A DNA stretch of 32,000 nt from Demequinaceae bacterium. GTDB taxonomy: Bacteria > Actinomycetota > Actinomycetes > Actinomycetales > Demequinaceae. The notes beneath the pieces are model-generated. The model searched no databases, was not told where the DNA came from, and worked only from the letters and a program-made list of their open reading frames with translations. The stretch is taken from contig OZ252279.1 in NCBI GenBank assembly GCA_965250005.1, positions 1,968,754-2,000,753 of the forward strand, in the 5' to 3' direction. Shown piece by piece: positions 10,487 to 32,000 of the stretch; the first letter of the stretch is position 1, and the number at the start of each line of letters is the position of its first letter. The position numbers and the translations under genes are program-made.

Positions 10487-10488
10487 CG

Positions 10489-13028: not shown

Positions 13029-13059
13029 TGTCACATCACCTTGTCCCGGCGAGGATAAC

Positions 13060-13095
13060 GGAGGCCCCTCCTGAGTCCAGGAGGGGCCTCCGTTT
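13060..13095 (+). terminator. Intrinsic terminator hairpin downstream of trxA
   Basis: Perfect 12-bp GC-rich stem ggaggcccctcc / ggaggggcctcc with an 8-nt loop, followed by gTTTc. It starts 32 nt after the trxA stop. Confidence 0.7.
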
Positions 13096-13101
13096 CGCCA
13101 G

Positions 13102-13186
13102 TGGTGCGCGAGGGGGGACTTGAACCCCCACGTCCGAAGACACTGGTACCTAAAACCAGCGCGTCTGCCAATTCCGCCACTCGCGC
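13102..13186 (-). tRNA. tRNA-Leu (anticodon UAG), CCA encoded
   Basis: The reverse complement reads GCGCGAGTGGCGGAATTGGCAGACGCGCTGGTTTTAGGTACCAGTGTCTTCGGACGTGGGGGTTCAAGTCCCCCCTCGCGCACCA. It has a 7-bp acceptor stem, anticodon loop TTTAGGT (UAG), a long variable arm and a GGTTCAAGTCC T-arm. Confidence 0.9.
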
Positions 13187-13237
13187 GAGTAACCCAGGAT
13201 ACGGCCTTTCGGCGGGGACCTTCGCGCGGGTGAGTCG

Positions 13238-13705
13238 CTAGGAGAGCCGGAGGTCGCGACGCAGCTTCGCCACGTGGCCCCCCGCCTTGACGTTGTACTG
13301 CGCGAGTTCGATCAGGCCTGCGGGATCGACGACGAAAGTTGAGCGAATGACACCGACCGAAATCTTCCCGTAGTTCGTTTTGTCGCCCCACGTTCCGTAT
13401 GCAGTGTGGACGGACTTGTCCGGGTCGGAGGCCAACGGAAACGTCAGGGATTCCTTCTCGCGGAATTGCGCGAGTTTCTCGGGGGAGTCAGGAGACACGC
13501 CGACGACAACGTAGCCCTCGCTCGCGAGTGAGGCAAGGGAGTCACGAAAGTCGCACGCCTGCTTGGTGCAGCCGCTCGTCATCGCGGCGGGGTAGAAGTA
13601 GATGATGACGTGCTTGCCACGGTGATCAGCGAGCGCGAAGGTTCCCTCGTCGGTGTCGAGCGTGAAGTCGGGGGCGACGTCGCCCACTGAGAGTTTTGTA
13701 GTCAT
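13238..13705 (-). CDS. bcp: Thioredoxin-dependent thiol peroxidase (peroxiredoxin Bcp)
   Basis: 155 aa. VIIYFYPAAMTSGCTKQACDFRD contains the peroxidatic Cys motif of Bcp/PrxQ, and the rest is AhpC/TSA-like. Confidence 0.9.
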   Translation of the reverse strand: MTTKLSVGDVAPDFTLDTDEGTFALADHRGKHVIIYFYPAAMTSGCTKQACDFRDSLASLASEGYVVVGVSPDSPEKLAQFREKESLTFPLASDPDKSVHTAYGTWGDKTNYGKISVGVIRSTFVVDPAGLIELAQYNVKAGGHVAKLRRDLRLS

Positions 13706-13816
13706 GTTGCTCAGAATATCCTGGTGCGTACGGTCGCCTAGTCCAAAGCGGGGGCGGTGCCGTTGCGGTCAGACCCTGGTGTCGGTACCGTCAGAACCAC
13801 CGAGGGGCGGTGTTCG

Positions 13817-18346: not shown

Positions 18347-18398
18347 TGGGCAGCTGAGTTTCGGTGTCAGGGGAGAGCCTGGTAAAGTTGCTGGCCGC

Positions 18399-18474
18399 GC
18401 GCCTCTAGCTCAATTGGTAGAGCATCTGACTCTTAATCAGAGGGTTCAGGGTTCGAGTCCCTGGGGGCGTACCA
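18399..18474 (+). tRNA. tRNA-Lys (anticodon CUU), CCA encoded
   Basis: GCGCCTCTAGCTCAATTGGTAGAGCATCTGACTCTTAATCAGAGGGTTCAGGGTTCGAGTCCCTGGGGGCGTACCA. It forms a cloverleaf with anticodon loop CTCTTAA and a GGTTCGAGTCC T-arm. Confidence 0.9.
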
Positions 18475-18478
18475 ACAG

Positions 18479-18510
18479 CGAAGGCCCGGTCCAATTGGAC
18501 CGGGCCTTCG
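18479..18510. terminator. Bidirectional hairpin terminator between tRNA-Lys (+) and the betaine-binding protein gene (-)
   Basis: Perfect palindrome cgaaggcccggtcca-at-tggaccgggccttcg, giving a stem of about 13 bp once a loop is allowed. It lies between two convergent transcription units. Confidence 0.65.
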
Positions 18511-18551
18511 CCATTCTGAGGGCGGGTGCCCTCAACAATTCGAGACGAGCG

Positions 18552-19535
18552 CTATCCCAGTGTGCCGTCCGAAGAGAAGATCAGACCGAGGACAACTTCG
18601 CCGGTCTTGATGGCGGTCTTGGTGAGCGGGCCACCGACATCGAGCGAGCGGAACTCGCTGATCTCGAAGCCGTAGGTCTCTTCAAGGCCGAGTTGGCAGA
18701 ACTCGCGCTCCGGGCACTCAGCAGGTCCGCCGAGTGAGATCGGACCGCAGGTTGCGGCCAGTTCCGACAGCGACGTGACGCCCCACTCGTCGGCGAATGC
18801 CTGGGTGGTGGCGAAGGCGTTCTGGTCCTGGGCGGCGGAAACGAGGCTGAACGTGATGCCCGTTTCATCTCCGAGCGCGAAGAGCGCCTGAACTGTGGCG
18901 TCGACGTCGCCCGAACTCACGGGTGCCGCCTCAGCGCCGTTGACCTGGCGGTTGAGGAATTCAGCGGCTGTGGCAGCGTACTCGGGGACCACGTGGATCT
19001 CGCCGCCGATGAGGGCGGGCATATATGTTTCCCGGTTTCCGATGGTGCGAACCTCCACGTCGAAGCCTGCGGTGCGCAGAACCGCGCCGTAGATCTCTGC
19101 GACGGTGATGTTCTCCGAGAAGTTCGCGGCGCCGACGACGACGGAGCCGCCGCTTTGGAGCGGAGCCGAGATGCCGGTGCTGGTCACGAAATCAGCGGCA
19201 ACCTGCTCGGACGTCTCAAAGTCGACGTCCGTGCGTTTGTTGAGCTGGATTAGGGTGGACGTGTCGAGGACCTTCGAGACCTCGTCGAGCGCTGCGCCAA
19301 CGGCGGGGTCGAGTGCGATTTCCTGGTTGATGGCCGGGATGATGTTATCCGCATTTTGGAGGTGCAGGTCGTCAGTAAGGACCACGAGGGCGTCGCCAGC
19401 GATCGGCGTACACGTGACTGCTCCGGTTGCGGACGACGTTGTGGTCGGGATGGGATCTTCGGCGGCTGTGGAGCAGGCCGAAAGAGTGAGGACGGACGCC
19501 ACGGCGGCCGCCAGAATTCTAGTTGAGTTTCGCAC
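18552..19535 (-). CDS. ABC transporter substrate-binding lipoprotein, glycine betaine/choline (OpuAC-type) family
   Basis: ORF track gives 18552..19565; I prefer the GTG at 19535, preceded by AGGAGA. The product begins MRNSTRILAAAVASVLTLSACS, a lipobox signal peptide. The body (VVVGAANFSENITVAEIYGAVLRTAGFDVE...IGGEIHVVPEYAATAAEFLN) resembles osmoprotectant-binding proteins. Confidence 0.8.
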   Translation of the reverse strand: MRNSTRILAAAVASVLTLSACSTAAEDPIPTTTSSATGAVTCTPIAGDALVVLTDDLHLQNADNIIPAINQEIALDPAVGAALDEVSKVLDTSTLIQLNKRTDVDFETSEQVAADFVTSTGISAPLQSGGSVVVGAANFSENITVAEIYGAVLRTAGFDVEVRTIGNRETYMPALIGGEIHVVPEYAATAAEFLNRQVNGAEAAPVSSGDVDATVQALFALGDETGITFSLVSAAQDQNAFATTQAFADEWGVTSLSELAATCGPISLGGPAECPEREFCQLGLEETYGFEISEFRSLDVGGPLTKTAIKTGEVVLGLIFSSDGTLG

Positions 19536-19657
19536 TTCTTCTCTCCTGTTAGGTTTCAAGGTCACTCACACAACCCATTCGGCCGCCACATTGTTCCCGC
19601 GATCTGGATGGAATCTGTGAGTCGACTGAGGCTAGCGTGCTTGAGCGCTCAGATTGA

Positions 19658-20389
19658 CTACATGGGCGCGTGGGCGAGTCTGCGGACGGACTCCGGCGTG
19701 AGGCGGCGCTCGAGGCGTCCGAGTAGTGCGTCGACTCCCAGGCTGAGGCCCGCGACCAGGACTGCGCCGGCCAGCACTTGGCCGTAGCGCTGCGTGGCGA
19801 ACCCAAAGTTGATGATGACGCCCAGGCCCCCGCCAGCGACTAGTGCAGCCAGCGGGATTGTTGCGACTGCCTGGACGGTGGCGACGCGTAGGCCGGTGGC
19901 GACAAGAGGCCACGCGAGAGGAAGTTCGAGGCGGGTAATCAGTTGCCGGCGATTCATGCCTTGGCCGCGCGCCGCGTCCCGCAGGTCCGCGTCAACATTC
20001 ATCATTCCCGTGTACGCGTTGGTCAGGATGGGGGGGATGGTGAAGATGGCGACGGCGATGATGATCGCGCGGTTGCCAAACCCGATCGAGCCGGCCGCGA
20101 ACATCATCAGCAACGCGAGCGTCGGGATCGCGCGGGAGACATTCGACGTGACGACGGTGGCGGCCCCGCCGCGCCGAAAGTGACCCAGGAAGAGTCCCAC
20201 GGGCAGCGCGACGAGCGCTGCGAGCCCCACGGCGCCAGCGGTCATGCCCAGGTGGTCAATCGTGAGGCCAATAATTGAGTCCCTGGCGGGCTTGAGACTG
20301 CCGTTGGCGCCCTCGATGAAGATTCCGCGCTCGCCTGTCCAGTTGGCCCAGGTGGTGATCCATGCCCAGGCGTCGCCGAGGATGCTCAT
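19658..20389 (-). CDS. ABC transporter permease (osmoprotectant uptake type)
   Basis: ORF track gives 19658..20410; I prefer the ATG at 20389, which overlaps the upstream permease stop (ATGA). Multi-span protein with the binding-protein-dependent permease EAA-like loop (DAARGQGMNRRQLITRLELPLAWP). Confidence 0.85.
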   Translation of the reverse strand: MSILGDAWAWITTWANWTGERGIFIEGANGSLKPARDSIIGLTIDHLGMTAGAVGLAALVALPVGLFLGHFRRGGAATVVTSNVSRAIPTLALLMMFAAGSIGFGNRAIIIAVAIFTIPPILTNAYTGMMNVDADLRDAARGQGMNRRQLITRLELPLAWPLVATGLRVATVQAVATIPLAALVAGGGLGVIINFGFATQRYGQVLAGAVLVAGLSLGVDALLGRLERRLTPESVRRLAHAPM

Positions 20390-21048
20390 GCGGACCGCCT
20401 TTTTAGCCATGGTGTGAGCCCGCGCCCCAGCAGCATCAGCGCGACGTCAAACGTGAGCGCAAGGGCGACAACGAGCAAGCCGGACGTCGCGATTTCGGCG
20501 CGGAAGCCGCGCGAGTAGCCGCGAAACATCAACTGACCGAGGCCACCGTAGCCCACGACAATTCCTACTGTTACAAGGGCAACCGTGGTGACCGTCGCCA
20601 CGCGCAGGCCAGCGACGATGGCTGGGAGCGCGTTCGGGATTTCCACCGCCAGTAGCAGGCGGAGGCGCCCGTAGCCCAGGCCTCGCGCCGCATCGATAAC
20701 GTCGGGGTCAACTCCCTGAAGTCCAGTTAGTGTGTTCTTGACCAGCATCAGCATGGCGTACATCACGAGCCCTATCAGCACGGTCTTTTCGCCGATGCCC
20801 GTGTACGGCGCAAGGATCGCGAAGAGCGCGAGCGACGGAACCGAGTAGGCGACTGCCGAGACGCCCAGAATCGGCCCCGCGAGCCTTGGCACGTAGCGCG
20901 CGAGCGCGGCAAGCGGGAGCGCGATGACCAGCGCGATTCCTATCGCCTTGACCGTGAGCTCCGCGTGAATCGCGAGGTGCTCCTCGATGGTGTCCCAGTT
21001 GCGCGTGACGTAGTCCCAGCTGAGCCAGGGGTTCGCCGGTTGGTCCAT
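20386..21048 (-). CDS. ABC transporter permease (osmoprotectant uptake type)
   Basis: 220 aa, multi-span, with the EAA-like loop [24 protein letters not shown]. It is the first gene of the minus-strand permease-permease-binding protein operon. Confidence 0.85.
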
Positions 21049-21104
21049 GCCACGACGCTACCTGCTTGGCAGTGCACCTCGAGCGAGGAGGTAGCGTTGC
21101 ACGC

Positions 21105-21875
21105 ATGGCAGCGAAGAAGGCGGCAGGCGCCGGCATCAGTTTTTCGAGCGTGCGCAAGGAGTATGCGGATGGCACGGTCGCCGTCACCAAGCTAGATCTC
21201 GATGTACGCGCGGGCGAGCTCTTGTGCCTCGTTGGTCCATCCGGCTGCGGCAAGTCCACCATCCTGAGGATGATCAATCGCCTTGTTGAGCCGACGGCCG
21301 GGAGAATCACGCTCGGCAGCAAAGACGTCATGGATCAGGACGCGGTGGAACTTCGCCGGCACATCGGCTACGTGATCCAGCATGTGGGTCTGTTCCCGCA
21401 CCGCACGGTTGCTCAAAACGTCGCCACCGTGCCAGGGCTGATCGGATGGGGCAAGAGCAGGACGACGGCACGAGTCGACGAGCTCCTCGAGCTTGTTGGC
21501 CTACCTCGCGGTACGTACGGCTCGCGCTACCCCCACCAATTGAGCGGCGGAGAGCGTCAGCGCGTGGGCGTCGCACGCGCCCTCGCAACCAAGCCGCCGG
21601 TGTTGCTCATGGACGAGCCGTTCGGGGCTGTCGACCCGCAGGGCCGCCGCCGCTTGCAGCAGGAGTTCCTTGCGATTCACGAAGAGCTGGGCACGACCGT
21701 GCTGATGGTGACCCACGATATTCGCGAGGCGACGGCTCTGGGCGACAGAATCGCGGTCTTCTCGGACGGCGGCGTGCTGGAGCAACTCGACAAGCCATCG
21801 AAGGTCCTGGCCAAACCGGCAAACGAGTTTGTGGCCACCTTCGTGGCTGACTTTGACCTGCCTGCGCGCGCCTAA
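21105..21875 (+). CDS. ABC transporter ATP-binding protein (OpuCA/OsmV-like core, no C-terminal CBS domains)
   Basis: ORF track gives 21066..21875; I prefer the ATG at 21105 ([13 protein letters not shown]...). It has Walker [11 protein letters not shown]-loop, signature [14 protein letters not shown], Walker [13 protein letters not shown] and H-loop VTHD. It is transcribed divergently from the permease operon across a 56-bp gap. Confidence 0.85.
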
Positions 21876-22564
21876 GACTTCGGCTTGGAGGCCCTCTTCT
21901 TGGGCTTGTTCTTGATCCTGAGTCCGCGACCTGTTCGCCAAACAGAGAAGTTGCTGCGCGCGGCCCGATCCTCCGCTTGTTTCTCGCCCTTGCGCTGACG
22001 GCGGCGGCGGCCGGTTGTCACGACTCGGTAAACCGCTACGCCCATGCCGAATAGCACGAGGATCACGAGCCACGGGAGCAAGATCGCAGAGAAGCTCATG
22101 GTCACAGCAACGGCGTCCTCAGCGAACGATGCGATGGGGGAGCCTGTACCGCCCGTCGCGGCATTCACAGCGGTGCGGGAGGCGGACTTGCCCACGTGAA
22201 CCACCAGCGCAACGATCGCTCCCAGCGTGTACCCAAGCCACGAGTTCTCTTGCCAGAAGTCGCTCGCTTCGACCCCTGCGGCAGCGGAGCTGGCGGCAAA
22301 GATCACGGAGCCTGAGAGTGGGCGAACCGCTGTTTGGATGATGTCGTTCACGTGGTCTACGCCAGGGATCTTGTCCAGAACCAGTTCAGCGAGCAGGAGC
22401 ATCAGGAAGATGATGATCGCGGGCCAGGAAGCTAGCCAGCCAAGGCTCGTCGGCAATTCGATCAGGCTCGTAAACCGAGCGAGCATGCTCACGATGACAA
22501 GCGGGATGAAGGCGTTGAGACCCGCGGCAGCGGAAAGTCCGGTGCCGGTCAGTGCGGCGAGCAT
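21872..22564 (-). CDS. DUF4126-like membrane protein with a basic C-terminal tail
   Basis: ORF track gives 21872..22627; I prefer the ATG at 22564, preceded by AAGGAGGA. The N-terminus MLAALTGTGLSAAAGLNAFIPLVIVSMLARF and the segment LAELVLDKIPGVDHVNDIIQTAVRPLSG are typical of DUF4126. The C-terminus is Arg/Lys-rich. Confidence 0.65.
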   Translation of the reverse strand: MLAALTGTGLSAAAGLNAFIPLVIVSMLARFTSLIELPTSLGWLASWPAIIIFLMLLLAELVLDKIPGVDHVNDIIQTAVRPLSGSVIFAASSAAAGVEASDFWQENSWLGYTLGAIVALVVHVGKSASRTAVNAATGGTGSPIASFAEDAVAVTMSFSAILLPWLVILVLFGMGVAVYRVVTTGRRRRQRKGEKQAEDRAARSNFSVWRTGRGLRIKNKPKKRASKPKS

Positions 22565-22658
22565 GATCCTCCTTGAGTGCAAGTTCTGCGCGATGTGTAC
22601 GGAATAACGATAGCCTGGGATCGGCACGTAGGCGCGCGCTATACAGAGAGGACGTCAC

Positions 22659-22919
22659 ATGGGTATCGTCAGCGCAGCAATCGCGGGTGCGATCGTTGCA
22701 TTCATCGTTTGGCTGTTGAAGAAGCGGAAGACTGGGATCGCCTGGTGGGCACTTTGGCTCAGTGGCATCGCGGGCGCGCTCATTGGGTACCAGGCCGCGG
22801 GCCTGCTCGGGGTCGAGTCCACGAGCGGAGTCGATTGGATTCGATGGGCCCTCAGTGTGGTCGCGGCATTTCTCGTCATTTGGTTGGCCAGGAAGCTCTT
22901 CAAGGGCGGCAAGAAGTAG
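22659..22919 (+). CDS. GlsB/YeaQ/YmgE-family small stress-response membrane protein
   Basis: 86 aa with three hydrophobic Gly/Ala-rich helices (MGIVSAAIAGAIVAFIVWLL..., WWALWLSGIAGALIGYQAAGLLG...). Size and pattern fit the transglycosylase-associated family. Confidence 0.65.
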   Translation: MGIVSAAIAGAIVAFIVWLLKKRKTGIAWWALWLSGIAGALIGYQAAGLLGVESTSGVDWIRWALSVVAAFLVIWLARKLFKGGKK

Positions 22920-22950
22920 CCTTCACCCGGTCCTCTGGACCGGGAAACGA

Positions 22951-22980
22951 CGAAGCCCGCGGCGGTTGCCGCGGGCTTCG
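22951..22980. terminator. Strong GC hairpin between the GlsB-family gene (+) and tRNA-His (-)
   Basis: 13-bp perfect stem cgaagcccgcggc / gccgcgggcttcg with loop ggtt. A second smaller hairpin, cccggtcc-tct-ggaccggg, lies at 22926-22944. Confidence 0.65.
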
Positions 22981-22986
22981 CACGTA

Positions 22987-23064
22987 TGGGGTGCCTGACG
23001 GGACTTGAACCCGCGGCCTCTGCCACCACAAGGCAGCGTTCTAACCAACTGAACTACAGGCACC
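22987..23064 (-). tRNA. tRNA-His (anticodon GUG) with encoded G-1 and CCA
   Basis: The reverse complement reads GGTGCCTGTAGTTCAGTTGGTTAGAACGCTGCCTTGTGGTGGCAGAGGCCGCGGGTTCAAGTCCCGTCAGGCACCCCA. The anticodon loop is TTGTGGT, and the extra 5' G is characteristic of tRNA-His. Confidence 0.9.
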
Positions 23065-23130
23065 ATCGGCCCTTGCGAGCCAGGCGCTAGTGTATCGCGC
23101 CGGGTCGGCCAGGGAAGACCCAGGCTTGAG

Positions 23131-23736
23131 TTATTCGCTGGGCTTGGTGACGGACTGGGCGTGGACGCGGGCGGTGTCGCTGTCCGGGCCGGGAGAGTCA
23201 ACAAAAACGGCTTCGCGGTAGTAGCGTAACTCGCGGATGGAGTCCTGGATGTCGCCCAGCGCGCGGTGGCCGCCCGTTTTTTCAGGCGACTGAAAATAGG
23301 CACGCGGGTACCAGCGCCGCGCGAGCTCCTTGATCGAACTGACGTCGATGACGCGGTAGTGGAGCCATGCGGATAGTTCGGGCATGTCGCGCTCGAGGAA
23401 CACTTTGTCCATCCCCACGGTGTTGCCCGCGAGCGGGGCCTTGCCCTCGGGGACGTGTTCCTTGATGTAGTCGAGCACTTCTGCTTGCGCGTCGGCCATG
23501 GTGAGGCCGTCGTCTAGCTCGGGGAGTAGCCCCGAGGTCACGTGCATGTCGTGCACGAACTCAATCATCTGGTCCAGCGCCTTTTTGGGGGGCTTGATGA
23601 CCACGGAGACGCCCTCGCCCAGTTGATTGAGCTCGCCGTCGGTGACGATCGCGGCGACCTCGATGAGTGCGTCGGTTTCCACGTTGAGTCCGGTCATCTC
23701 GCAGTCGATCCAAACCATGTGGTTGGGGGCAGCCAT
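23131..23736 (-). CDS. orn: Oligoribonuclease
   Basis: 201 aa. MVWIDCEMTGL... is the DEDDh exonuclease motif I, and ...HRALGDIQDSIRELRYYR is motif III. Adjacency to tRNA-His is typical of Actinomycetota. Confidence 0.95.
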   Translation of the reverse strand: MAAPNHMVWIDCEMTGLNVETDALIEVAAIVTDGELNQLGEGVSVVIKPPKKALDQMIEFVHDMHVTSGLLPELDDGLTMADAQAEVLDYIKEHVPEGKAPLAGNTVGMDKVFLERDMPELSAWLHYRVIDVSSIKELARRWYPRAYFQSPEKTGGHRALGDIQDSIRELRYYREAVFVDSPGPDSDTARVHAQSVTKPSE

Positions 23737-23762
23737 GGGACAACTCTAGGCCCGGTCGTGAC

Positions 23763-24857
23763 TCACGCGGGCCATGCGCCTCTGGAGTACGCGTGCGGCC
23801 ACAAATCGGCGTCGACTCCGAGCTGGTGCGCTGCTCGTAGCGCGAAATGAGGGTCGCGCAAGAATTCGCGGCCGGCGAGCACCGCATCTGCCTGCCCGGA
23901 GGCGACGATCTTCTCTGCCTGGTGCGCCTGGGTTATCTGCCCGACGGCGCTGACGGGCCCTCCAGTGGCCTCGCGTATTGCGGCCGCGAAGGGCACCAAA
24001 TAGCCGGGGCCCGTGGGAATCTTGACCCCTGCGACATTGCCGCCGCTGGACACGTCGATCAGGTCCGCGCCCGCTTCGAGACACCAGCCTGACACTTGGG
24101 TGGCGTCCTCGAGGGTCCAACCGGCTGGTTCGGCCCAGTCGGTGGCAGACAGCCGGACGAAAACGCACGTGGAGTCGCCCGCTTCGGAGCGAACGGCGCG
24201 CACAATATCGAGCAGAAGCCGTGAGCGGTTGTCGAGCGACCCACCGTATTCGTCGGACCGCGCGTTTGGTAGCGGCGACAGGAACTCGTGGATCAGATAG
24301 CCGTGTGCGGCGTGGACCTCGACCACGTCAAAGCCGGCATCGACCGCGCGCCGGGTGGCGGCGCGAAATGCCTCGACGATGTCGGCCAACTCTGCCGCGG
24401 TGAGCTCGCGGGGCGCAGCGAGCCCGGGGAAGGGGATGTCCGACGGGCCGACGGTCTGCCATCCACCGTCGCTCGCCGCCTGTGTACCGCGGCCACTCCA
24501 ACTCCGGTACGTGGAGCCTTTGCGCCCCGCGTGCGCGAGTTGCAGGCCAGCCTTCGCGCCCTGGGCATGAATGAAGCGGACGGTCTGTTCCCACGCGGCC
24601 CGCTGTGCGTCGTTCCATACTCCGGTGTCCCAGGCAGTGATCCTTCCTTCTGGGACCACGGCGGTCGCCTCGGCGATCACGAGCCCGGCGCCGCCGCGGG
24701 CCTGCGATCCGAGGCTTACCAGGTGCCAGTCCGTTGGCACACCGTCTTGGTTCTCCACGGAGTACTGGCACATTGGCGCCACCCAGAGGCGGTTCCTGAA
24801 GGTGTGCCCGCGAAGCGTGAGCGGCGAGAAGAGCGAGGATTCGAGGGCGGCTGCCAT
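23763..24857 (-). CDS. NADH:flavin oxidoreductase / NADH oxidase, Old Yellow Enzyme family
   Basis: 364 aa. LFSPLTLRGHTFRNRLWVAPMCQYS, VEVHAAHGYLIHEFLSPLPNARSDEYGGSLDNR and VSAVGQITQAHQAE are canonical OYE/NamA-like segments. Confidence 0.9.
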   Translation of the reverse strand: MAAALESSLFSPLTLRGHTFRNRLWVAPMCQYSVENQDGVPTDWHLVSLGSQARGGAGLVIAEATAVVPEGRITAWDTGVWNDAQRAAWEQTVRFIHAQGAKAGLQLAHAGRKGSTYRSWSGRGTQAASDGGWQTVGPSDIPFPGLAAPRELTAAELADIVEAFRAATRRAVDAGFDVVEVHAAHGYLIHEFLSPLPNARSDEYGGSLDNRSRLLLDIVRAVRSEAGDSTCVFVRLSATDWAEPAGWTLEDATQVSGWCLEAGADLIDVSSGGNVAGVKIPTGPGYLVPFAAAIREATGGPVSAVGQITQAHQAEKIVASGQADAVLAGREFLRDPHFALRAAHQLGVDADLWPHAYSRGAWPA

Positions 24858-25028
24858 ATCTCAGCGGATCCACGTTCTGCGGGTTGCGAAGGCCATGTTG
24901 CCAACCCTAATCGCGTCAGCGCCCGTCAGTTGCGGCCTGCGCTCGTTGCTCTCGGACGACACCAGGCGGCCAAGTTTGCTGGGTCTTGACGCGGGGGGCC
25001 GACCGCCCCTGTCTCCCTAGCAAATCGG

Positions 25029-25105
<77 letters not shown>

Positions 25106-25204
25106 TGGCGCCGTGCGCGCCTACTAGAGTAGACCGTGGCGCCGATGGCGGTGCGCCCGGCGCGGGTTCTTGGTGGATTGGCAGTCAGGGGGCACGCTAG
25201 TCTC

Positions 25205-26794
25205 ATGAGCATCCGGCCGGTGAAATCTTGGGCGTACCCCGGCGCGCTGCTGGACGCGTTGCGCGCGACCCGCAACGCCGCCGCCGCCGTGGAGTTCCCC
25301 TTCGACTCTGAGTACGGAGAAAAGGGGCGCGAACTCATCCATAACATTACGGAGCAGCTCGACCAACACCTCATTCCACGCGTGGTGGAGAAGTCGTCCC
25401 CGGCGATCGTCGTGGTGTCCGGATCCACAGGCTCGGGCAAGTCGAGCATCGTCAATGCGCTGCTAGGAGAGCAGCTCACGGCTTCTGGCGTGTTGCGTCC
25501 GACGACCATGGCCCCGCACCTCTTCCACCACCCCCTGGATTCTGAGCTACTCAGCAGCGCCTCGCGCAAGGCCGAGGTACTCGCATCCGATGCGATCCCG
25601 CGCGGGCTCGCCGTGGTGGATTCCCCGGACATCGACTCGCTTGTTGGCGCGAACCGTGAGGTCGCGCGCGAGCTACTGGACGCCGCCGACCTATGGGTAT
25701 TCGTGACCACTGCCGCCCGCTACGGCGACGCCGTCCCGTGGGACGTGCTGCGCGCGGGTGCTGATCGTGGCGCGTCGATCGCCGTCGTGCTGAATCGAGT
25801 GACGGTGGACGTCGCCGCTCACGTGCGCCGGGACTTGGTGGACCGCTTGCGCCGCGAGGGTCTGGACTCGCTACCGCTGTTCGTCATCCCGGAGGAGCCC
25901 GAGGGCCTGGACCAACTGCCTGCCGACGTGGTCAAAGGCCTGGGCCGCTGGCTGGACGGCGTGGCCAGCGCAAACGCCACATCGATCATCGAGCGGACCA
26001 TGGAGGGCGCAACTGAGGCGCTCAAGGAGTGGCTGGAGAAGCTCGCCGGCCTGATGGACACACAGGCAGAAGCGGTGAAGCAGGCGCGCGGCGACGTGCG
26101 GCGTGCTGCGGCGCGCGCCGAGCAAGAGGGCGGTGAGTACTGGTTCCGTGAGATCGCCGCGGGGCCCGTCTCTACTCGCTGGGCGCAGACGGCCGGGTCC
26201 GGGGGCCCGCTCTTCAAGATTCGCGGAAGTGCTTGGGCAAAACGGCGCACCGCCCGCGAGGACCGCGACAAGGCACTTGACGAGATTCGCGCTGAGCTAT
26301 TTGAAGCGGTGACGGGCACCCTCGCATACACGGCGGGACAGGCCTCGGAGAGGATGACGGATGCGCTGGGCCGCACAGACGATGGCCCCGGCGTGTGGAT
26401 GCTCGCGCAACGCGACCCCGCAGACGCTCAGGGTGTGCGAGAGCGGCACGCGCGCGACGCCGCCATCGGGTGGTTCACGGTGTGCGAAAGAACCGCGACG
26501 GGGCTTCCCAACGTGCCCGCAGCGATCGAATTGGTGGGCGAGCAGGGGCTCGCAACGACGTTTGCGTCCGCAGTGCTCGGCATCCCGCCAGCGCGGCAGG
26601 CGCTCGCGCTCATGGTGGGATCGGGGCTCCAAGAGACGTTCGACAACATGCGGCTCCAGCTAGGCGCCGCGCGCCGGTACTGCATCAATCGCGAGGCGCT
26701 CGACACTATTCGGCCCACGGACCTGGCCGGCCTCATCCCGGAGGCGTCGGCTGAGATTCGACTGCGCCGCGCCGAACTCAGAGGCCTCCTGTGA
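25205..26794 (+). CDS. Dynamin-like / P-loop GTPase, first of a coupled pair
   Basis: ORF track gives 25136..26794 with a non-ATG start; I prefer the ATG at 25205, and the start is uncertain. P-loop VVVSGSTGSGKSSIVNALLG, switch threonines RPTT, VVDSPDIDS (G3-like) and VLNRV (G4-like), followed by a roughly 330-aa helical C-terminal region. Confidence 0.7.
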   Translation: MSIRPVKSWAYPGALLDALRATRNAAAAVEFPFDSEYGEKGRELIHNITEQLDQHLIPRVVEKSSPAIVVVSGSTGSGKSSIVNALLGEQLTASGVLRPTTMAPHLFHHPLDSELLSSASRKAEVLASDAIPRGLAVVDSPDIDSLVGANREVARELLDAADLWVFVTTAARYGDAVPWDVLRAGADRGASIAVVLNRVTVDVAAHVRRDLVDRLRREGLDSLPLFVIPEEPEGLDQLPADVVKGLGRWLDGVASANATSIIERTMEGATEALKEWLEKLAGLMDTQAEAVKQARGDVRRAAARAEQEGGEYWFREIAAGPVSTRWAQTAGSGGPLFKIRGSAWAKRRTAREDRDKALDEIRAELFEAVTGTLAYTAGQASERMTDALGRTDDGPGVWMLAQRDPADAQGVRERHARDAAIGWFTVCERTATGLPNVPAAIELVGEQGLATTFASAVLGIPPARQALALMVGSGLQETFDNMRLQLGAARRYCINREALDTIRPTDLAGLIPEASAEIRLRRAELRGLL

Positions 26795-28143
26795 GCGTTT
26801 CGTTCACGCACCTCGAGCCTCCGAGCGAGACCACGTTCCTGCGGGAACGGGTGATGCGGCTGCGCTCCTCGATGGAGTGGGCGAGTGACGCGATCTCCGC
26901 CAAAGTGCGCGCCAAGGTGGAGGAGGCAATCACGCGCTGCGAGCAGCGCCTCGACCTGGGCGTGGACTACACGATCGTCGCGCTCGCGGGCGGCACGGGT
27001 TCTGGAAAGTCGTCGCTGTTCAACGCGATTGCGCGGACCGACTTCGCAATGCCCGGCGTCTCGCGGCCCACAACCGCGCACATTAGCGCGGCAACGTGGG
27101 GCGGCAAGGCCACGCCCATCCTCGACTGGCTCGAGGTTGCGCCTGAGCGGCGCCTCGCGTGCAAAACAGCGCTCGACGCGGACTCTGAGCCCGAGTCCTC
27201 GCTCAACGGCATGATCCTTCTGGACCTTCCGGACCACGATTCGGTCAGTGTAGCCAACCGCGCGATCGTCGACGCCGTCGCCCCCATGGCGGACCTGCTC
27301 GTTTGGGTGGTGGACCCGCAGAAGTACGCGGACCAGGCGCTGCACGCGCGCTATCTCCAGGCGGTCGCGGACGTGAACGCGCCGTCGGCCGTCATCCTCA
27401 ACCACATCGACCGGCTTGGCCGCGAAGACACCGACTCGGTGGCGTTCGACATTCGCCGGCTGCTCGCAGACAAGGGCATCGACGACGTGCCGGTGCTGCT
27501 AACGTCGGCGCGCACGGGCATGGGTGTTGACACCGTTCGCGCGGCGCTCGCCGCAGCAGTGCAGAAGCGATCCGTTGCGGCCGAGGCGGTGCGATCAGAG
27601 TTGGTGGCGGCCGGGCGACTGCTCGCTAAGGTGCTCGCGAAAGACGCGGACCCGGCACTTCCTGACTTCCCCCAGTTTGTTGAGTCACTCGCCGTTGCCG
27701 CTGGTGTCGACGCCCGCGCCGATGCGGCGTCCCAGGTGGCCTCGGGGGCCGGGGGCTCCGTGCCCGAGATTGCCGCGCTTACGGCGGCGGCCGTCGATCC
27801 GCTGCGCGAGGCGTGGCTGGACGGCGCCACGGTGGGTCTGCCGCGCGCGTGGCGCAAGGTGCTCGCGAAGGCGATCGGCCGTCCTCGCGCGCTCGCCGAG
27901 GCTGTGAACGGCGCGCTTGGTGCGGCCCCATGGCCCGAGGTGCCCGCGGAGAAGAAGCGGTTCCGACGCACCAAGATCGGAGCCGGTGTGGCCACCGAGA
28001 TTCGCGATGTGGGCCGCGCAGTTATTGCGCACGCCATCAAGGACGAGATTGTTGAGCCCACGCAGACCATGCACCAGGCGTACCGCGCACTGGATGAACT
28101 CACGCATCTGGGCGACGCGCAGACGCCACGCACCGCAGCTTAA
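26791..28143 (+). CDS. Dynamin-like / P-loop GTPase, second of a coupled pair
   Basis: 450 aa. The GTG start overlaps the upstream stop (GTGA). P-loop VALAGGTGSGKSSLFNAI, RPTT, LLDLPDHDS and ILNHID (NKxD-like), followed by a helical C-terminal region. Confidence 0.7.
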   Translation: MSVSFTHLEPPSETTFLRERVMRLRSSMEWASDAISAKVRAKVEEAITRCEQRLDLGVDYTIVALAGGTGSGKSSLFNAIARTDFAMPGVSRPTTAHISAATWGGKATPILDWLEVAPERRLACKTALDADSEPESSLNGMILLDLPDHDSVSVANRAIVDAVAPMADLLVWVVDPQKYADQALHARYLQAVADVNAPSAVILNHIDRLGREDTDSVAFDIRRLLADKGIDDVPVLLTSARTGMGVDTVRAALAAAVQKRSVAAEAVRSELVAAGRLLAKVLAKDADPALPDFPQFVESLAVAAGVDARADAASQVASGAGGSVPEIAALTAAAVDPLREAWLDGATVGLPRAWRKVLAKAIGRPRALAEAVNGALGAAPWPEVPAEKKRFRRTKIGAGVATEIRDVGRAVIAHAIKDEIVEPTQTMHQAYRALDELTHLGDAQTPRTAA

Positions 28144-28171
28144 GCGGGTGTTGGCCCCCCACGGGCAATCG

Positions 28172-28840
28172 CTACTGGGTCGCCGGTGGCGCCTCTAGCG
28201 TCTTGCGCGCCTTGGCCGCGAGCTTCACGGCAACCTCGTGCCAACCGGCGCGATCCTTCTTGGTGGGCTTGTCTTTGATCCCGGGCGAGGCGAGCTTCTT
28301 GAAGAACGGGTGCTGGGCGGCGTCGGCGATCGCGCCCGCGTACTTGAGCAACGCGTCGGCGGAGTGGTAGCGCACCAGGTAATCCTCGGAGGCCGCGCTG
28401 ATCTCGAGCGCGTCATTCGCCTCGAGCGAGGGCTCGAGTTTGCCGACCGCCATCGCGGCGTCGATGCCGAAGACCCAGTGATTTCTCCCAACCAATACGT
28501 CGAGCATGGTGCTCCGGTGCACCGGGTCTCCGGTGACCTGGAAGAGCGTCTCGGCCTGCTTCAAGGTGAATGAGGCGGACGGCGGGTTCTCGTACGCCTT
28601 GAGGTGCTCGAGCGCCTCGGGAACTTTTCGCCCAGCGGCGATGAGCCGGCCGATGGACTCGGCGGCCATCGCGGCCGTAACAGCGACGCCCTCGATCAGC
28701 ATCGCCTCGACCAGTTCCGGGTCCTCGCGATGCGCCTTCTCGATCGATGACCAGTTCGCACCGTCGTGCCACACCATGTACGGGTCGCCGAACACATCGA
28801 CGTGCCAGGTGTCCCACGTGGGCGCGAGCTTCTTTGCCAT
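28172..28840 (-). CDS. Hypothetical protein (predicted alpha-helical, basic C-terminus)
   Basis: 222-aa ORF with an ATG start and GC3-rich codon usage like its neighbours. I recognise no motifs. The C-terminus is KKLASPGIKDKPTKKDRAGWHEVAVKLAAKARK. Confidence 0.55.
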   Translation of the reverse strand: MAKKLAPTWDTWHVDVFGDPYMVWHDGANWSSIEKAHREDPELVEAMLIEGVAVTAAMAAESIGRLIAAGRKVPEALEHLKAYENPPSASFTLKQAETLFQVTGDPVHRSTMLDVLVGRNHWVFGIDAAMAVGKLEPSLEANDALEISAASEDYLVRYHSADALLKYAGAIADAAQHPFFKKLASPGIKDKPTKKDRAGWHEVAVKLAAKARKTLEAPPATQ

Positions 28841-28983
28841 GTCGCCAGGGTATCCGGAGACCGGTGTCCCCAGCCCGCTGCGGGGGAGAGCCGACGGCCG
28901 GAGCCAACCGCCGCGTCGTCCCTGGTCCGCGCGAGGGCGAGCCTGGTTGCAGCCGCAAGTAGCGGCGCCTCAAGGAGGGCGCG

Positions 28984-29361
28984 ATGAATGATCTGACAAT
29001 GACTGTGAACGGCTGGGTGGCCACTCAGCCAGCCCAGCATGTGGGGCCGTCGGGGGTGCGGCTCACCAGTTTTCGGATGGCGAGCACGTCCCGGTACTAC
29101 GACCGGGAGAAGCAAGAATGGGTGGACGGCCGCACCGAGTGGTTCTCCGTCAAGGTGTTCCGGAACGCCGCGATCACCGTGGCGAACTCTATTCACAAGG
29201 GGCAGCCCGTTGTGGTTCACGGGCGCTTCCGGACATCCGAGTGGGAAGGCGACTCCGGGACGCGCGTGGACCTCGTGATCGACGCGACAAGCGTGGGGCA
29301 CGACTTGACGCGCGGTACAGCGGACTTCTCGCGGGCAGTGGGCGATGGTGCACTAACCTAA
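28984..29361 (+). CDS. Single-stranded DNA-binding protein paralogue (OB fold), apparently cut at its 3' end by the sequence junction
   Basis: AAGGAGGG RBS upstream. The OB-fold SSB pattern is VNGWVATQP...RLTSFRMAST...EWFSVKVFRNAAITVANSIHKGQPVVVHGRFRTSEWEGDSGTRVDLVIDATSVGHDL. The last 2-3 codons and the TAA stop lie in the AT-rich foreign sequence, so the native C-terminus is probably missing. Confidence 0.7.
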   Translation: MNDLTMTVNGWVATQPAQHVGPSGVRLTSFRMASTSRYYDREKQEWVDGRTEWFSVKVFRNAAITVANSIHKGQPVVVHGRFRTSEWEGDSGTRVDLVIDATSVGHDLTRGTADFSRAVGDGALT

Positions 29362-29362
29362 A
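29353..29362. other. Compositional breakpoint: high-GC bacterial DNA joins AT-rich eukaryote-like DNA
   Basis: ...gggcagtgggcgatggtgcac | taacctaaaattaaaactggttttgactataaaatat... Coding density, GC content and repeat content all change within fewer than 10 bp. Confidence 0.9.
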
Positions 29363-29599
29363 ATTAAAACTGGTTTTGACTATAAAATATGATCGGTTTC
29401 AGTTCGGTTAACCTTATGAATACAGCTCTATTTATTATACAGCTTAAATGGTACATGTATGGATGTGTAGGAGATCTAATAGAATGTATGTAAAATAATA
29501 CTTCTTGACATACATTTTGGTGGATGAAGGAAAAAAAGGGGATGTGGAAGTCGAAGGAGGGGAACTACAACATGAAGAGGTGAGGAAAAGCAAGAGGAG

Positions 29600-29760
<161 letters not shown>

Positions 29761-30160
29761 AAAATAAATAGTAGTAAAAGTACTTAAAGAAGAAGAAGAA
29801 ACAAAAAGAAGAAATGGAATGATGGAAAATATGAAAAAAGAAGGAAGAAAATGAGACTGAGAGATTGGGCAACAAATCAAGCACTGTACTTGGAATGGCA
29901 AACAAATAGAAAACAGCATAGTTAAATGTAAAAACCTGAACTTTAACTTTCAAACTTGTACTTTGCCAGAACTTGAAGAAGGAAACACTCATTAGAAGAA
30001 TTTCTTCTATGTGATATGGAACATTACTTCATAATTTGATCTACATGTATGAAGTGATGTCCTTGGTTTCCATGGCTACATAAACATCTAACACTTTACA
30101 CTGGAAGAGGGGGAGCTCATATTTCCATGAAGTAACCATGGAAACAACATGCCCTCATCT

Positions 30161-30729
30161 TAAAGGTAGTGGATCCCATTTGCAGTCTCAAAATGTGAGA
30201 CTGGATAAAAAATAATGGCATGTAGAAGTAAATACCATGTAGGAACTCTCTGTAAAAAATAAGAACTGGAAACTAACTTTAGGTTGATTTTTTATGAATA
30301 AATTATTTAGCTCTGAATTTGAGTTAATGTATGGGCCATACAAAAATTGTCAATAGGGCTTACACACTAAACTCTATTTTAGAGTTTTATCTCTTACTGT
30401 ATACGCCATATATTTCGCGAGTCTAATTTTTCGCGAATCCGGACTTCAATACATTTTCGCGAGTGGGTATATTCGCGATCGAGGAGGAGAGCAATGGATG
30501 GATCGGAGGTTAATTTATTTTCGCGTGTTGTTGAATTCGCGAAAAGCACCGACTCGCGAAATTCGCGAAAATAAAACCCCCGCGAAATATATGGCGTATA
30601 CAGTATTTGAAAATTTTACAACTTACAACTATAAGATTTCATATTCATCATCACACTACTATATATTTATCATCCTTGCATAGTTTTGTGATGTTTAAGG
30701 ATATCTGCAAATAGGATCTACTACCTTTA
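30161..30729. mobile_element. Non-autonomous TIR element (MITE-like, ~570 bp) with TTAA/TA flanks
   Basis: The left end ttaaaggtagtggatcccatttgcag (30160-30185) and the reverse complement of the right end, ttaaaggtagtagatcctatttgcag (30705-30730), match at 24 of 26 positions. There is no coding capacity. A subterminal 8-bp hairpin cagtctca/tgagactg lies at 30183-30203. Confidence 0.6.
30397..30603. mobile_element. Nested MITE-like element (~207 bp) with perfect 23-bp TIRs and TA flanks
   Basis: ctgtatacgccatatatttcgcg (30397-30419) is the perfect reverse complement of cgcgaaatatatggcgtatacag (30581-30603). TA sits immediately outside both ends. The interior carries at least eight copies of a (t)tcgcg(a) core. 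It lies wholly inside the 30161-30729 element. Confidence 0.7.
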
Positions 30730-31289
30730 ACAGGAAACAAACATCATTGCTGAACTGTTAATGCATTTAAGCAAACTCTACCTGTTTTAAATTGGTTGTG
30801 TACTCAGGGCTAAAAATACATAGATTTAATTAATGGGGTCTTTTTCCTAGTTTGTCAGGGAATTTAAGGGGCCCATAAAAATTTGTTAAGAGGGCTGTGT
30901 TTATAGCTTATGGGGGGCTATAAAATATACAAATCTATAGACATTCTTGTATTTTACTGCTATTTGTAATACATTCCTAAATAAAAGTGTACATAACTGT
31001 ACTGCAAAGTTGTACAAAATAACAATTTTTACCATTAGGCACCTAAATCAGTACACAAATAAAGAATTAATTTCCTATGATTTCCAGAGCTCATTAGCCT
31101 CAAGCCTGTGTACATGTACTTTGAGCAATGGTTAATCATACTGACACACAGATGTTTAACAACATAATTGCCCTGATTTTATGGACCTGAATAACTACGG
31201 GTAAATCATATCTATTTTAACAGGGCTTATTTCCTACATTTATACAGAGTATGCAGAATGAAGAGGCAAACTCCCCTTAGGCTAGTCTC

Positions 31290-31661
31290 CTAGGGTGTGT
31301 TTATCGCATTTTTCTGAATTAGAAACAGGCGATAAACAGGCTTTTGATACCCATAATCAAACGCCGATACAAACGCGTATACAAACCCGTTTCTCGGACG
31401 TCGTGTTTATCGGCCCGTTTCTAGTAGGGGGTATAAAACGTTTGTCTCTGCTTCTCTGCGCAGCTGCAGTGCTTTCTAGCTCATCGGGTGACCATCGGGC
31501 GATCAAAAGCCACAAATTTGTGGCTTTCAAATCAGGTAGGCTAAACGGCTATCAAAACGGCTTTGCGTTTATCGAGGGCGATCTGGTAGGCTAATCACGA
31601 ATCAAAACACTGTTTAGAACGCAGAAACACGACAGAAACAGGGCGATAAACACACCCCTAG
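31290..31661. mobile_element. MITE-like element (~370 bp) with ~18-bp TIRs and internal copies of the terminal motif
   Basis: The left end ctagggtgtgtttatcgc (31290-31307) matches the reverse complement of the right end, ctaggggtgtgtttatcgc (31643-31661), with one 1-nt indel. The terminal motif cgataaac/gtttatcg recurs internally at least five times. Confidence 0.55.
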
Positions 31662-32000
31662 ATACCAAATGGCTTAAACATTAAAGGGGGGGAAATTGTG
31701 CTAGTTGTGAGATGAGTCTATTTCCTATAAAATTTTCCATAGTTTTCATGAAACAATCTTATGTGTAAACAGTTATTGTTTTTGTAATTTGTATAATAAC
31801 ATGCAAGGTTATGTAAACAAAAGTGGGAGTACATACCTTTCAATACAAACAACATTTTGACTGCAGACTGCAGTGTCCTTAAAAGCACATTAAAAGGCGA
31901 ATCTATTTTGTTTGCCCAATGGGTGTACATAAATATGTTCTCTACCTGGTTCAGTAATAGTGATTTACACAATCTATTGTTCACATACATGTAGTTCAGT

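What the first reader, a model, noticed from the sequence alone, without database searches (positions are those of the whole stretch)
29340..29420. Bacterial-to-eukaryote-like junction cutting an ssb-like gene
Up to about 29355 the sequence is tightly packed with GC3-rich actinobacterial genes. From taacctaaaattaaaac onward it is AT-rich and lacks credible ORFs. That downstream part carries a roughly 19-unit perfect AGT microsatellite and nested TIR elements, features of eukaryotic (probably invertebrate-type) genomic DNA rather than of a bacterial island, phage or plasmid. The change happens within fewer than 10 bp, inside about codon 123 of an ssb-like ORF whose stop codon comes from the AT-rich side. 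I see no target-site duplication, att-like repeat, integrase or compositional gradient at the joint. The simplest reading is a chimeric join: assembly or scaffolding error, a contaminant contig fused to host DNA, or deliberate concatenation. The more interesting alternative is a very recent transfer of at least 29 kb of intact bacterial DNA into a eukaryotic genome.
Basis: partly seen in the sequence, partly recalled or inferred. Interest (0 to 1): 0.8.

Follow-up and report, generated by a model that had tools for sequence, protein, structure and literature searches.

The report
Assembly chimera: bacterial contig joined to animal DNA
A marine actinobacterial chromosome breaks off mid-gene into animal DNA, almost certainly through an assembly error in a public metagenome-derived contig, because the same record also holds the intact gene, so it is not a gene transfer.

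Summary
At window 29354/29355, GC falls from about 0.65 to 0.23-0.33 within 40 nt, inside codon 124 of an SSB gene. The stop codon comes from the AT-rich side.

The left side (1-29354) is an intact, syntenic Demequinaceae chromosome segment. The right side is animal DNA: a perfect (AGT)19 run, strong CpG depletion and multicopy MITEs.

Three results decide the reading:
- **The join is in a public record.** The chimeric 125-aa product is already in the public protein collection, on a 2,000,753-bp NCBI/ENA contig. The window builder did not create it.
- **The cut region exists intact elsewhere in that record.** A contig of that same length (taken to be the same record) also carries the intact 163-aa SSB. 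It also carries a second version of the neighbouring 222-aa gene that differs by one inserted C. At least 1.18 kb next to the joint is therefore present twice, and one copy runs on normally.
- **The animal DNA traces to a low-coverage metagenome.** The right-hand MITE has 96-99.7% identical copies on 2-4x linear contigs of ENA metagenome assembly ERZ26222911, next to LINE elements.

The best reading is a chimeric read or graph misjoin plus false duplication in a long-read metagenome assembly (confidence about 0.9). Real transfer in either direction is not strictly excluded (about 4%). Interest is low.

The parts
1..29354 (.). Demequinaceae-type bacterial chromosome segment. It is tightly packed with intact housekeeping genes and four tRNA genes.
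   Evidence: GC is 0.58-0.72. Coding fraction is about 87% by GC3-supported ORFs. Pfam/NCBIfam hits include RNase PH, RdgB/Ham1, thioredoxin, Bcp, Orn-type exonuclease, OYE oxidoreductase, ABC transporters and a dynamin-like GTPase pair. tRNA-Leu, Lys, His and Arg are present. Gene order matches Demequinaceae/Demequina genomes up to window 29345. Nine of ten proteins tried are found exactly on one 2,000,753-bp NCBI/ENA contig.
28984..29361 (+). SSB-family gene cut after codon 124. Residue 125 (acc, Thr) and the stop codon (taa) come from the AT-rich side.
   Evidence: PF00436 E=7e-18. P0001 is this exact 125-aa product. P0002 is the intact 163-aa form, identical for residues 1-124. Relatives are 139-205 aa long.
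29353..29356 (.). The breakpoint, most likely between 29354 and 29355.
   Evidence: P0001 and P0002 diverge after Leu124. The CTA codon is rare on the bacterial side at 5% of Leu codons. The 40-nt GC profile shows the step. No SMRTbell adapter is present and no repeat sits at the joint.
28172..28840 (-). A 222-aa lineage-specific ORF next to ssb. A second version with one extra base exists in the same public record, which marks the duplicated segment.
   Evidence: P0159 (222 aa, this copy) and P0160 (208 aa) are both on a 2,000,753-bp contig. Inserting one C at 28758/28759 (minus strand) reproduces P0160 exactly. The ORF has no Pfam or NCBIfam family. No relative aligns to this stretch at the DNA level.
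29355..32000 (.). Animal (marine-invertebrate-like) non-coding DNA.
   Evidence: GC is 0.33-0.40. Stop codons run at 6.2 per 100 codons against 1.95 on the bacterial side. CpG observed/expected is 0.09 outside the two CpG-rich MITEs (5 CG against 46 GC). Microsatellites and MITEs shared with low-coverage LINE-bearing contigs of ERZ26222911 are present.
29602..29753 (+). Adjacent (AGA)n and (AGT)n microsatellites. The perfect (AGT)19 run is at 29665-29721.
30155..30735 (.). Outer inverted-repeat element (31-nt arms, 87% complementary). The arms' own outermost bases include TTAA at both ends. It encloses the inner MITE.
30397..30603 (.). Inner MITE with perfect 25-nt inverted repeats, CpG-rich (TTCGCGA repeats). 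The outermost TA of each arm is readable as a TA duplication. A partial 87% copy lies in L017.
31293..31657 (.). Multicopy MITE (GGGTGTGTTTATCGC ... GCGATAAACACACCC) with a 3-bp flanking duplication (CTA here).
   Evidence: Copies at 99.7% (L017), 96.8% (L019) and 96.2% (L022) identity, each in different flanking sequence, all in ERZ26222911. Flanks are CTA/CTA in the window and TTA/TTA in L019. Twenty-one related ORF products exist, all from ENA only.

Best explanation
The joint is an assembly artefact in a public, metagenome-derived 2.0-Mb contig of an uncultured Demequinaceae bacterium.

The bacterium was sequenced together with small amounts of DNA from an animal. That animal is probably a marine invertebrate. 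The only named relative of its LINE element is from a sea urchin.

At the ssb gene the assembler left the bacterial chromosome and continued into animal sequence. The cause was either a rare chimeric long read (two molecules ligated in one library insert) or a false edge in the assembly graph. The true bacterial path, with the rest of ssb and the genes beyond it, was also kept in the same contig. The segment next to the joint is therefore present twice.

Shown: the joint is in the public record. The cut gene and its neighbour exist a second time on a contig of the same length, with ssb intact there. The right side is multicopy animal DNA from a low-coverage fraction of one ENA metagenome.

Inferred: that the record is a bin or MAG from that same sample, that the assembler was metaMDBG (judged from contig names), and the exact arrangement. 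The arrangement could be a chimeric tail at an overlapping contig end or an internal insertion.
For: - The exact chimeric product P0001 (125 aa...GDGALT) and the intact P0002 (163 aa...GDGAL-GEPEAP...) are each recorded on one contig of 2,000,753 bp, sources NCBI+ENA.
- Nine further window proteins lie on a contig of that same length. The 222-aa neighbour of ssb has a second version, P0160, on it. One inserted C at 28758/28759 explains P0160 exactly. At least 28172-29354 is therefore duplicated in the record.
- Relatives always have a full-length SSB (139-205 aa) followed by further bacterial genes.
- The bacterial genes are all intact at about 87% coding density.
- The MITE at 31293-31661 is 99.7%, 96.8% and 96.2% identical to copies on ERZ26222911 contigs ctg798282_3x_l, ctg894616_3x_l and ctg339048_2x_l. 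These contigs also carry LINE RT/zf-RVT ORFs and satellite DNA, with GC 0.38 and CpG o/e 0.48-0.73.
- The step is abrupt, with no TSD, att site, integrase or gradient.
- Preprint 10.1101/2025.04.22.649783 documents cross-domain chimeric contigs and false duplications in long-read metagenome assemblies, most often with metaMDBG. The metaMDBG paper itself names chimeric HiFi reads as a source of false graph links.
Against: - I could not retrieve the 2.0-Mb record or any reads. Read support, coverage on each side, and the position of the second copy are unknown.
- No 'empty-site' animal contig spanning the joint was found.
- No adapter sequence sits at the joint, so a ligation chimera is not directly demonstrated.
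- The link between the record and ERZ26222911 is indirect. It rests on shared MITE copies only.
Confidence: 0.9

Rival explanations
1. A very recent transfer of at least 29 kb of Demequinaceae DNA into the animal's nuclear genome, like Wolbachia insertions in insects. Under this reading the window shows one true bacterium/host junction.
For: The joint is seamless, with no N gap, and is present in a public record. Real nuclear insertions of bacterial DNA can be multi-copy and rearranged, so a second ssb copy on the same contig is not by itself incompatible (own knowledge).
Against: All roughly 25 bacterial genes are intact, with normal codon bias and no decay. Bacterial CpG is not depleted (1.22) next to host DNA at 0.09. 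The animal fraction is known only as 2-4x contigs of up to 50 kb. A 2.0-Mb contig at that depth is implausible unless it is bacterial. Demequinaceae relatives come from environmental MAGs and free-living isolates, not germline symbionts (record titles). The window contains no eukaryotic flank on the left.
Confidence: 0.02
2. A real insertion of host DNA into the chromosome of a bacterial subpopulation by illegitimate recombination after DNA uptake. The assembler would then have placed both alleles, with and without the insert, in one contig.
For: The record appears to be a bacterial contig and holds both an interrupted and an intact ssb copy. The long-read assembly preprint describes contigs that concatenate alternative subpopulation alleles. 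A human L1 fragment in Neisseria gonorrhoeae is a precedent (own knowledge).
Against: A true insertion should leave the ssb 3' part at the far junction, not a second full copy plus a second copy of the upstream gene. The window shows no far junction. There is no microhomology or mobile-element end at the joint. The nearest inverted-repeat element starts 800 nt away. Uptake of non-coding animal DNA by an actinobacterium has no precedent that I know of.
Confidence: 0.02
3. The window was made by deliberately concatenating unrelated sequences, for example as a synthetic control, and the joint exists nowhere in public data.
For: The change is abrupt and mid-codon, with no biological signature.
Against: The exact chimeric product, including the Thr and stop contributed by the AT-rich side, is already in the public protein collection from an NCBI/ENA contig.
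Confidence: 0.01
4. The AT-rich side is a bacterial genomic island, phage or plasmid remnant rather than eukaryotic DNA.
For: AT-rich islands and MITEs do occur in bacteria (own knowledge).
Against: There are no credible ORFs, and stops run at 6.2 per 100 codons. The right side has perfect (AGT)19 and (AGA) arrays and CpG o/e of 0.09. Its MITE copies lie on contigs with LINE reverse transcriptase/zf-RVT and satellite DNA, and the best named homologue of that LINE ORF is from the sea urchin Diadema antillarum. The one phage search, with window 4400-29360, found only short (about 50-85 nt) matches on the bacterial side; the AT-rich side itself was not compared with phages or plasmids. No integrase was found.
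Confidence: 0.01

Closest known systems
Cross-domain chimeric contigs and false duplications in long-read metagenome assemblies (preprint 10.1101/2025.04.22.649783; chimeric HiFi reads noted in the metaMDBG paper, PMC11392814)
   Same: A sudden shift in GC and gene-level taxonomy inside one contig. The two parts come from different domains of life. A duplicated stretch lies next to the error. The contig names in the linked sample look like metaMDBG output.
   Different: The diagnostic used in that work, 100% read clipping and a coverage jump at the breakpoint, could not be applied here because no reads are available.
Contamination mistaken for horizontal transfer in animal genome projects (for example the tardigrade Hypsibius dujardini controversy; own knowledge)
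   Same: Intact, uninterrupted bacterial genes sit next to animal DNA in an assembly, and the donor is a free-living-type bacterium.
   Different: Here the record seems to be a bacterial contig carrying a piece of animal DNA, not an animal assembly carrying bacterial scaffolds.
Genuine bacterium-to-animal insertions (Wolbachia nuclear insertions in insects and nematodes; own knowledge)
   Same: Tens of kilobases of bacterial DNA directly abutting animal repeats. There can be several copies.
   Different: The donor here is not a germline endosymbiont. There is no gene decay, no evidence of spanning reads, and no animal flank on the other side.
Actinobacterial second SSB paralogue (the gene that is cut)
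   Same: An OB-fold SSB domain (PF00436). The best NCBIfam match is the actinobacterial subfamily NF005851, below its cut-off.
   Different: The intact form ends ...EKAEELALSA, not in the canonical acidic D-D-D-I-P-F tip of housekeeping SSB (the tip motif is own knowledge). It is always found after a dynamin-like GTPase pair.

Membership tests
Chimeric (misassembled) contig | Abrupt change of base composition at one point | tested here: met
   GC 0.65 to 0.225 between adjacent 40-nt windows. The 500-nt profile shows 0.67 against 0.33.
Chimeric (misassembled) contig | Change of gene-level taxonomy or domain of life at the same point | tested here: met
   Left side: synteny with Demequinaceae. 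Right side: MITEs shared with LINE-bearing, CpG-depleted contigs, with the best named relative from a sea urchin.
Chimeric (misassembled) contig | The interrupted sequence exists uninterrupted in the same data | tested here: met
   Intact SSB P0002 and a second copy of the neighbouring gene (P0160) lie on a contig of the same 2,000,753-bp length.
Chimeric (misassembled) contig | Reads clipped at the breakpoint, with a coverage jump across it | not testable with these tools
   No reads are available and the record is not retrievable. The only indirect hint is that animal contigs in ERZ26222911 are labelled 2-4x.
Bacterium-to-animal lateral transfer (nuclear insertion) | Animal sequence on both sides of the bacterial block | tested here: inconclusive
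   The window is bacterial from base 1 to 29354 and shows only one junction.
Bacterium-to-animal lateral transfer (nuclear insertion) | Signs of residence in the host: pseudogenisation, host-like CpG depletion, host repeats inserted into the bacterial block | tested here: not met
   All genes are intact at 87% coding density. CpG o/e is 1.22. No MITE or microsatellite lies left of 29354.
Bacterium-to-animal lateral transfer (nuclear insertion) | Independent reads or PCR spanning the junction at host depth | not testable with these tools
   Needs the raw data of the source sample.
Integrative mobile element / genomic island boundary | Integrase or transposase, att or target-site duplication, or a tRNA at the boundary | tested here: not met
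   No such domains were found. No repeat spans the joint. The nearest tRNA is 4.2 kb away.
SSB (PF00436) family, for the cut gene | OB-fold SSB domain above the Pfam cut-off | tested here: met
   65.1 bits against a cut-off of 26, residues 6-104.
SSB (PF00436) family, for the cut gene | Complete C-terminal tail | tested here: not met
   39 residues are missing relative to P0002. The 120 homologues listed are 139-205 aa long.
Eukaryotic MITE (element at 31293-31657) | Terminal inverted repeats, short flanking duplication, many near-identical copies at unrelated sites, no coding capacity | tested here: met
   15-nt perfect inverted repeats. Flanks are CTA/CTA and TTA/TTA. Three further copies at 96-99.7% sit in different flanks, and 21 related ORF products exist. 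The flanks of the L017 copy do not match each other.

The most novel reading that the evidence does not exclude
The joint is biological. Either a subpopulation of this Demequinaceae bacterium has integrated a piece of its animal host's non-coding DNA into ssb, or the animal carries a very recent insertion of at least 29 kb of Demequinaceae DNA. In both cases the duplicate copy in the record would reflect the assembler stringing two alleles together.
Probability: 0.04. Interest if true: 0.85.

Novelty: not a real feature. Interest (0 to 1): 0.1.

Why it matters
As biology it does not matter much. It is a misjoin between a bacterial chromosome and low-coverage animal DNA.

As data hygiene it does matter. 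A 2.0-Mb, apparently near-complete actinobacterial contig in NCBI/ENA carries at least 2.6 kb of animal DNA, a truncated ssb gene and a falsely duplicated segment with a frameshifted gene. These errors have already passed into public protein collections as P0001 and P0160. Such joins are what produce false claims of inter-domain gene transfer.

If the joint were real in either direction, it would be a rare case of very recent large-scale DNA exchange between an animal and a free-living-type actinobacterium.

Tried and rejected
- **Phage or prophage origin of the bacterial block.** A megablast of 4400-29360 against 50,697 phage records gave only short (about 50-85 nt) matches, none covering even 1% of the query; one falls under an annotated phage tRNA gene. 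Rejected.
- **Retrieving the source contig.** Exact look-ups of the cut SSB, the intact SSB, the 222-aa neighbour and Orn in the gene-position index all returned 'not on record', although the proteins are in the protein collection.
- **GTDB representatives.** There is no 100% match. The best relative is 83% aa identical, so the species is not among the representatives. This used the only genome-contig scan.
- **Search for an 'empty site' animal contig.**
  - Ten ORFs from the AT-rich side are not in the collection.
  - P0137's contig is only another MITE copy.
  - A 25-mer next to the joint and the MITE ends have no exact match in JGI metagenomes or IMG/VR.
- **Linking the bacterial lineage to ERZ26222911.** A near-identical strain protein (P0162) turned out to come from another sample, ERZ24794553.
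- **SMRTbell adapter at the joint.** Absent with up to 3 mismatches.
- **Telomere reading.** The 'aacctaa' at the joint resembles one CCTAA unit, but it is a single unit, so I dismissed it.
- **Paper search for the sample accession.** Nothing found.

Full report

Yes. In 500-nt windows GC is 0.58-0.72 from base 1 to 29000 and 0.33-0.40 from 29501 to 32000. In 40-nt windows it drops from 0.65 (29320-29359) to 0.225 (29360-29399), with no gradient.

The ORF at 28984-29361 encodes a 125-aa protein with a Pfam SSB domain (PF00436, 65 bits, residues 6-104). Its last sense codon (acc) and its stop (taa, 29359-29361) lie on the AT-rich side.

The perfect (AGT)19 run is at 29665-29721, inside a roughly 30-unit imperfect array. 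An (AGA) array precedes it.

The nested inverted repeats exist. The outer arms are at 30155-30185 and 30705-30735. The inner arms are perfect 25-nt repeats at 30395-30419 and 30581-30605. A third element has arms at 31293-31307 and 31643-31657.

**2. The left side**

Bases 1-29354 carry about 25 GC3-supported ORFs that cover about 87% of the sequence, plus four tRNA genes.

The products are ordinary chromosomal functions:
- cation efflux, a Na/Ca exchanger and ABC transporters
- RNase PH, RdgB/Ham1, thioredoxin and Bcp
- a betaine-type ABC system
- an Orn-like exonuclease and an OYE flavin oxidoreductase
- a pair of dynamin-like GTPases, then SSB

None is an integrase or transposase. There is no similarity to phage genomes beyond short matches of about 50-85 nt.

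SSB homologues are named Demequinaceae or Demequina. A scan of GTDB species representatives returned 16 loci. DNA alignment shows conserved gene order (oxidoreductase, tRNA-Arg, GTPase pair, ssb) with Demequinaceae MAGs and Demequina isolates, up to window position 29345.

In those relatives ssb is full length. It is followed by more bacterial genes: a sugar ABC operon in L004, and PadR or ABC-F genes in L020 and L021.

**3. The right side**

It has no credible ORFs. Stop codons occur at 6.2 per 100 codons against 1.95 on the left. Outside the two CpG-rich MITEs, CpG observed/expected is 0.09 (5 CG against 46 GC in 2,068 nt).

A 99-aa ORF inside the third MITE has a 100% identical product, P0122, on ENA metagenome contig ERZ26222911:ctg798282_3x_l. 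Twenty further relatives exist, all from ENA only.

At the DNA level only the MITE is shared. Identity is 99.7% in L017, 96.8% in L019 and 96.2% in L022, with different flanks each time. The element ends are GGGTGTGTTTATCGC and GCGATAAACACACCC. The 3-bp flanks are CTA/CTA in the window and TTA/TTA in L019. This is the pattern of a eukaryotic MITE.

The contigs carrying these copies are AT-rich (GC 0.38) and CpG-depleted (0.48-0.73). They carry satellite arrays and LINE ORFs with RVT_1 and zf-RVT domains. The only named homologue of one such ORF is from the sea urchin Diadema antillarum, at 50% identity. That is a weak pointer to a marine invertebrate.

All four contigs I looked up belong to ERZ26222911 and are labelled 2x-4x and linear. 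From my own knowledge, the name format ctgN_Nx_l is that of the HiFi metagenome assembler metaMDBG.

**4. The decisive evidence**

The protein search with the SSB domain returned two 100% matches:
- **P0001** is the exact chimeric 125-aa product (...GDGALT).
- **P0002** is an intact 163-aa protein (...GDGAL-GEPEAPADPP...EELALSA). Its tail is homologous to those of relatives.

Each is recorded on one contig of 2,000,753 bp, from NCBI and ENA. The joint is therefore in a public record, so the window builder did not make it. That record also contains an uninterrupted ssb.

The exact look-up of ten more window proteins found nine, all on a contig of the same length. One of them is the 222-aa ORF directly upstream of ssb (28172-28840, minus strand). 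It has a sibling, P0160 (208 aa), on that contig.

P0160 is identical from residue 29 onward but starts in another frame. Inserting a single C at 28758/28759 on the minus strand reproduces P0160 exactly.

The record therefore holds a second copy of at least 28172-29354 (1.18 kb or more). That copy differs by one base and continues normally through the 3' end of ssb. Identical duplicate proteins would be invisible to this test, so the duplicated stretch may be longer.

**5. The breakpoint**

P0001 and P0002 agree through Leu124, encoded by cta at 29353-29355. CTA is only 5% of 878 Leu codons on the bacterial side. The third base therefore most probably already belongs to the animal side. The break is most likely at 29354|29355, with a possible range of 29353-29356. 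Thirty-nine residues of SSB are missing.

There is no adapter, no repeat or microhomology detectable from one side alone, and no mobile-element end at the joint. The nearest inverted-repeat element starts 800 nt downstream.

**6. The mechanism I consider most likely (confidence about 0.9)**

A long-read metagenome contained an abundant Demequinaceae bacterium and a thin (2-4x) fraction of animal DNA. A chimeric library molecule, or a false edge in the assembly graph, led the contig path from ssb into animal sequence. The correct continuation was also retained in the same contig. This produced a false duplication, and one copy carries a consensus indel.

The simplest arrangement is a linearised circular chromosome whose two ends overlap, with a chimeric animal tail on one end. 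An internal insertion flanked by duplicated sequence is the alternative. I cannot tell these apart without the record.

Both error types are documented for long-read metagenome assemblers, especially metaMDBG. Cross-domain chimeric contigs and false duplications are described in preprint 10.1101/2025.04.22.649783. The metaMDBG paper itself mentions chimeric HiFi reads that link unrelated genomes in the graph.

The inferred steps are that the 2.0-Mb record derives from the same sample as ERZ26222911, the identity of the assembler, and the arrangement.

**7. Rivals**

- **Real bacterium-to-animal transfer (about 2%).** Nothing supports it. There is no gene decay, and CpG o/e is bacterial (1.22) right up to the joint. 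The window has no left animal flank. The donor family is free-living. A 2-Mb contig could hardly be assembled from a 2-4x genome.
- **Real insertion of animal DNA into a bacterial subpopulation (about 2%).** It would explain a bacterial contig holding both alleles. However, it predicts a split ssb, not a full second copy plus a second copy of the upstream gene, and it has no precedent in this group.
- **Deliberate concatenation.** Refuted by P0001.
- **A bacterial island.** Contradicted by the microsatellites, the CpG depletion and the company the MITEs keep (LINE elements).

**8. Verdict**

This is not a biological feature, and its interest is low except as a contamination and misassembly flag for a public record. 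Mapping the source reads across 29354/29355 and locating the second copy in the 2,000,753-bp record would settle it.

Noticed in passing
window 28172-28840 (-): A 222-aa ORF with very high GC3 (0.88) and no Pfam or NCBIfam family sits between the dynamin-like GTPase pair and ssb. No relative aligns to this stretch at the DNA level, and L004 has only about 200 bp there. It looks like a lineage-specific gene insertion. A frameshifted duplicate (P0160) exists in the same public record.
   Followed up: partly
window 25136-28143 (+) and 28984-29361 (+); L020, L021, L003-L010: Two tandem dynamin-like/GTPase genes (552 and 450 aa) followed by an SSB paralogue form a conserved gene neighbourhood across Demequinaceae. 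The intact SSB ends ...EELALSA and lacks the canonical acidic tip of housekeeping SSB. The function of this trio is unexplored here.
   Followed up: partly
window 10489-11946 (+): A 485-aa ORF has an N-terminal RdgB/Ham1 domain (residues 8-205). Residues 337-404 give a weak match to G/U mismatch-specific DNA glycosylase (NF007570, E=2e-10, well below cut-off). This could be a fusion of two DNA/nucleotide-sanitising activities, or an over-extended ORF.
   Followed up: no
window 13757-18346 (+): A 1,529-aa ORF has no Pfam hit but carries an NCBIfam SCO7613 C-terminal membrane-protein domain (residues 1357-1524). It has three internal copies of a 48-nt motif (14912, 16292, 16979) encoding WWP-type hydrophobic segments. 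It is a large repetitive membrane protein of unknown function.
   Followed up: partly
window 30155-30735, with inner element 30397-30603: One inverted-repeat element is nested inside another. The outer arms' own outermost bases include TTAA, and the inner arms' include TA, readable as possible target-site duplications. The inner element is CpG-rich (TTCGCGA repeats) in otherwise CpG-poor DNA, which suggests a young insertion.
   Followed up: partly
L017 2840-4022: The animal contig ERZ26222911:ctg798282_3x_l carries a G-rich satellite array (GC skew 0.98) that reads as long repetitive ORFs on both strands (WNEVEIGEWIGVK... on one strand, HSPISTSFHFTPI... on the other). The metagenome's gene caller called these as genes, an example of spurious proteins entering databases.
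   Followed up: no
L023 (ERZ24794553:NODE_173751, 1,559 bp): A closely related strain (roughly 93% aa identity to the 450-aa GTPase, estimated by eye from the printed sequences) occurs at about 2x coverage in a different ENA metagenome. The bacterial lineage is therefore not confined to one sample.
   Followed up: no
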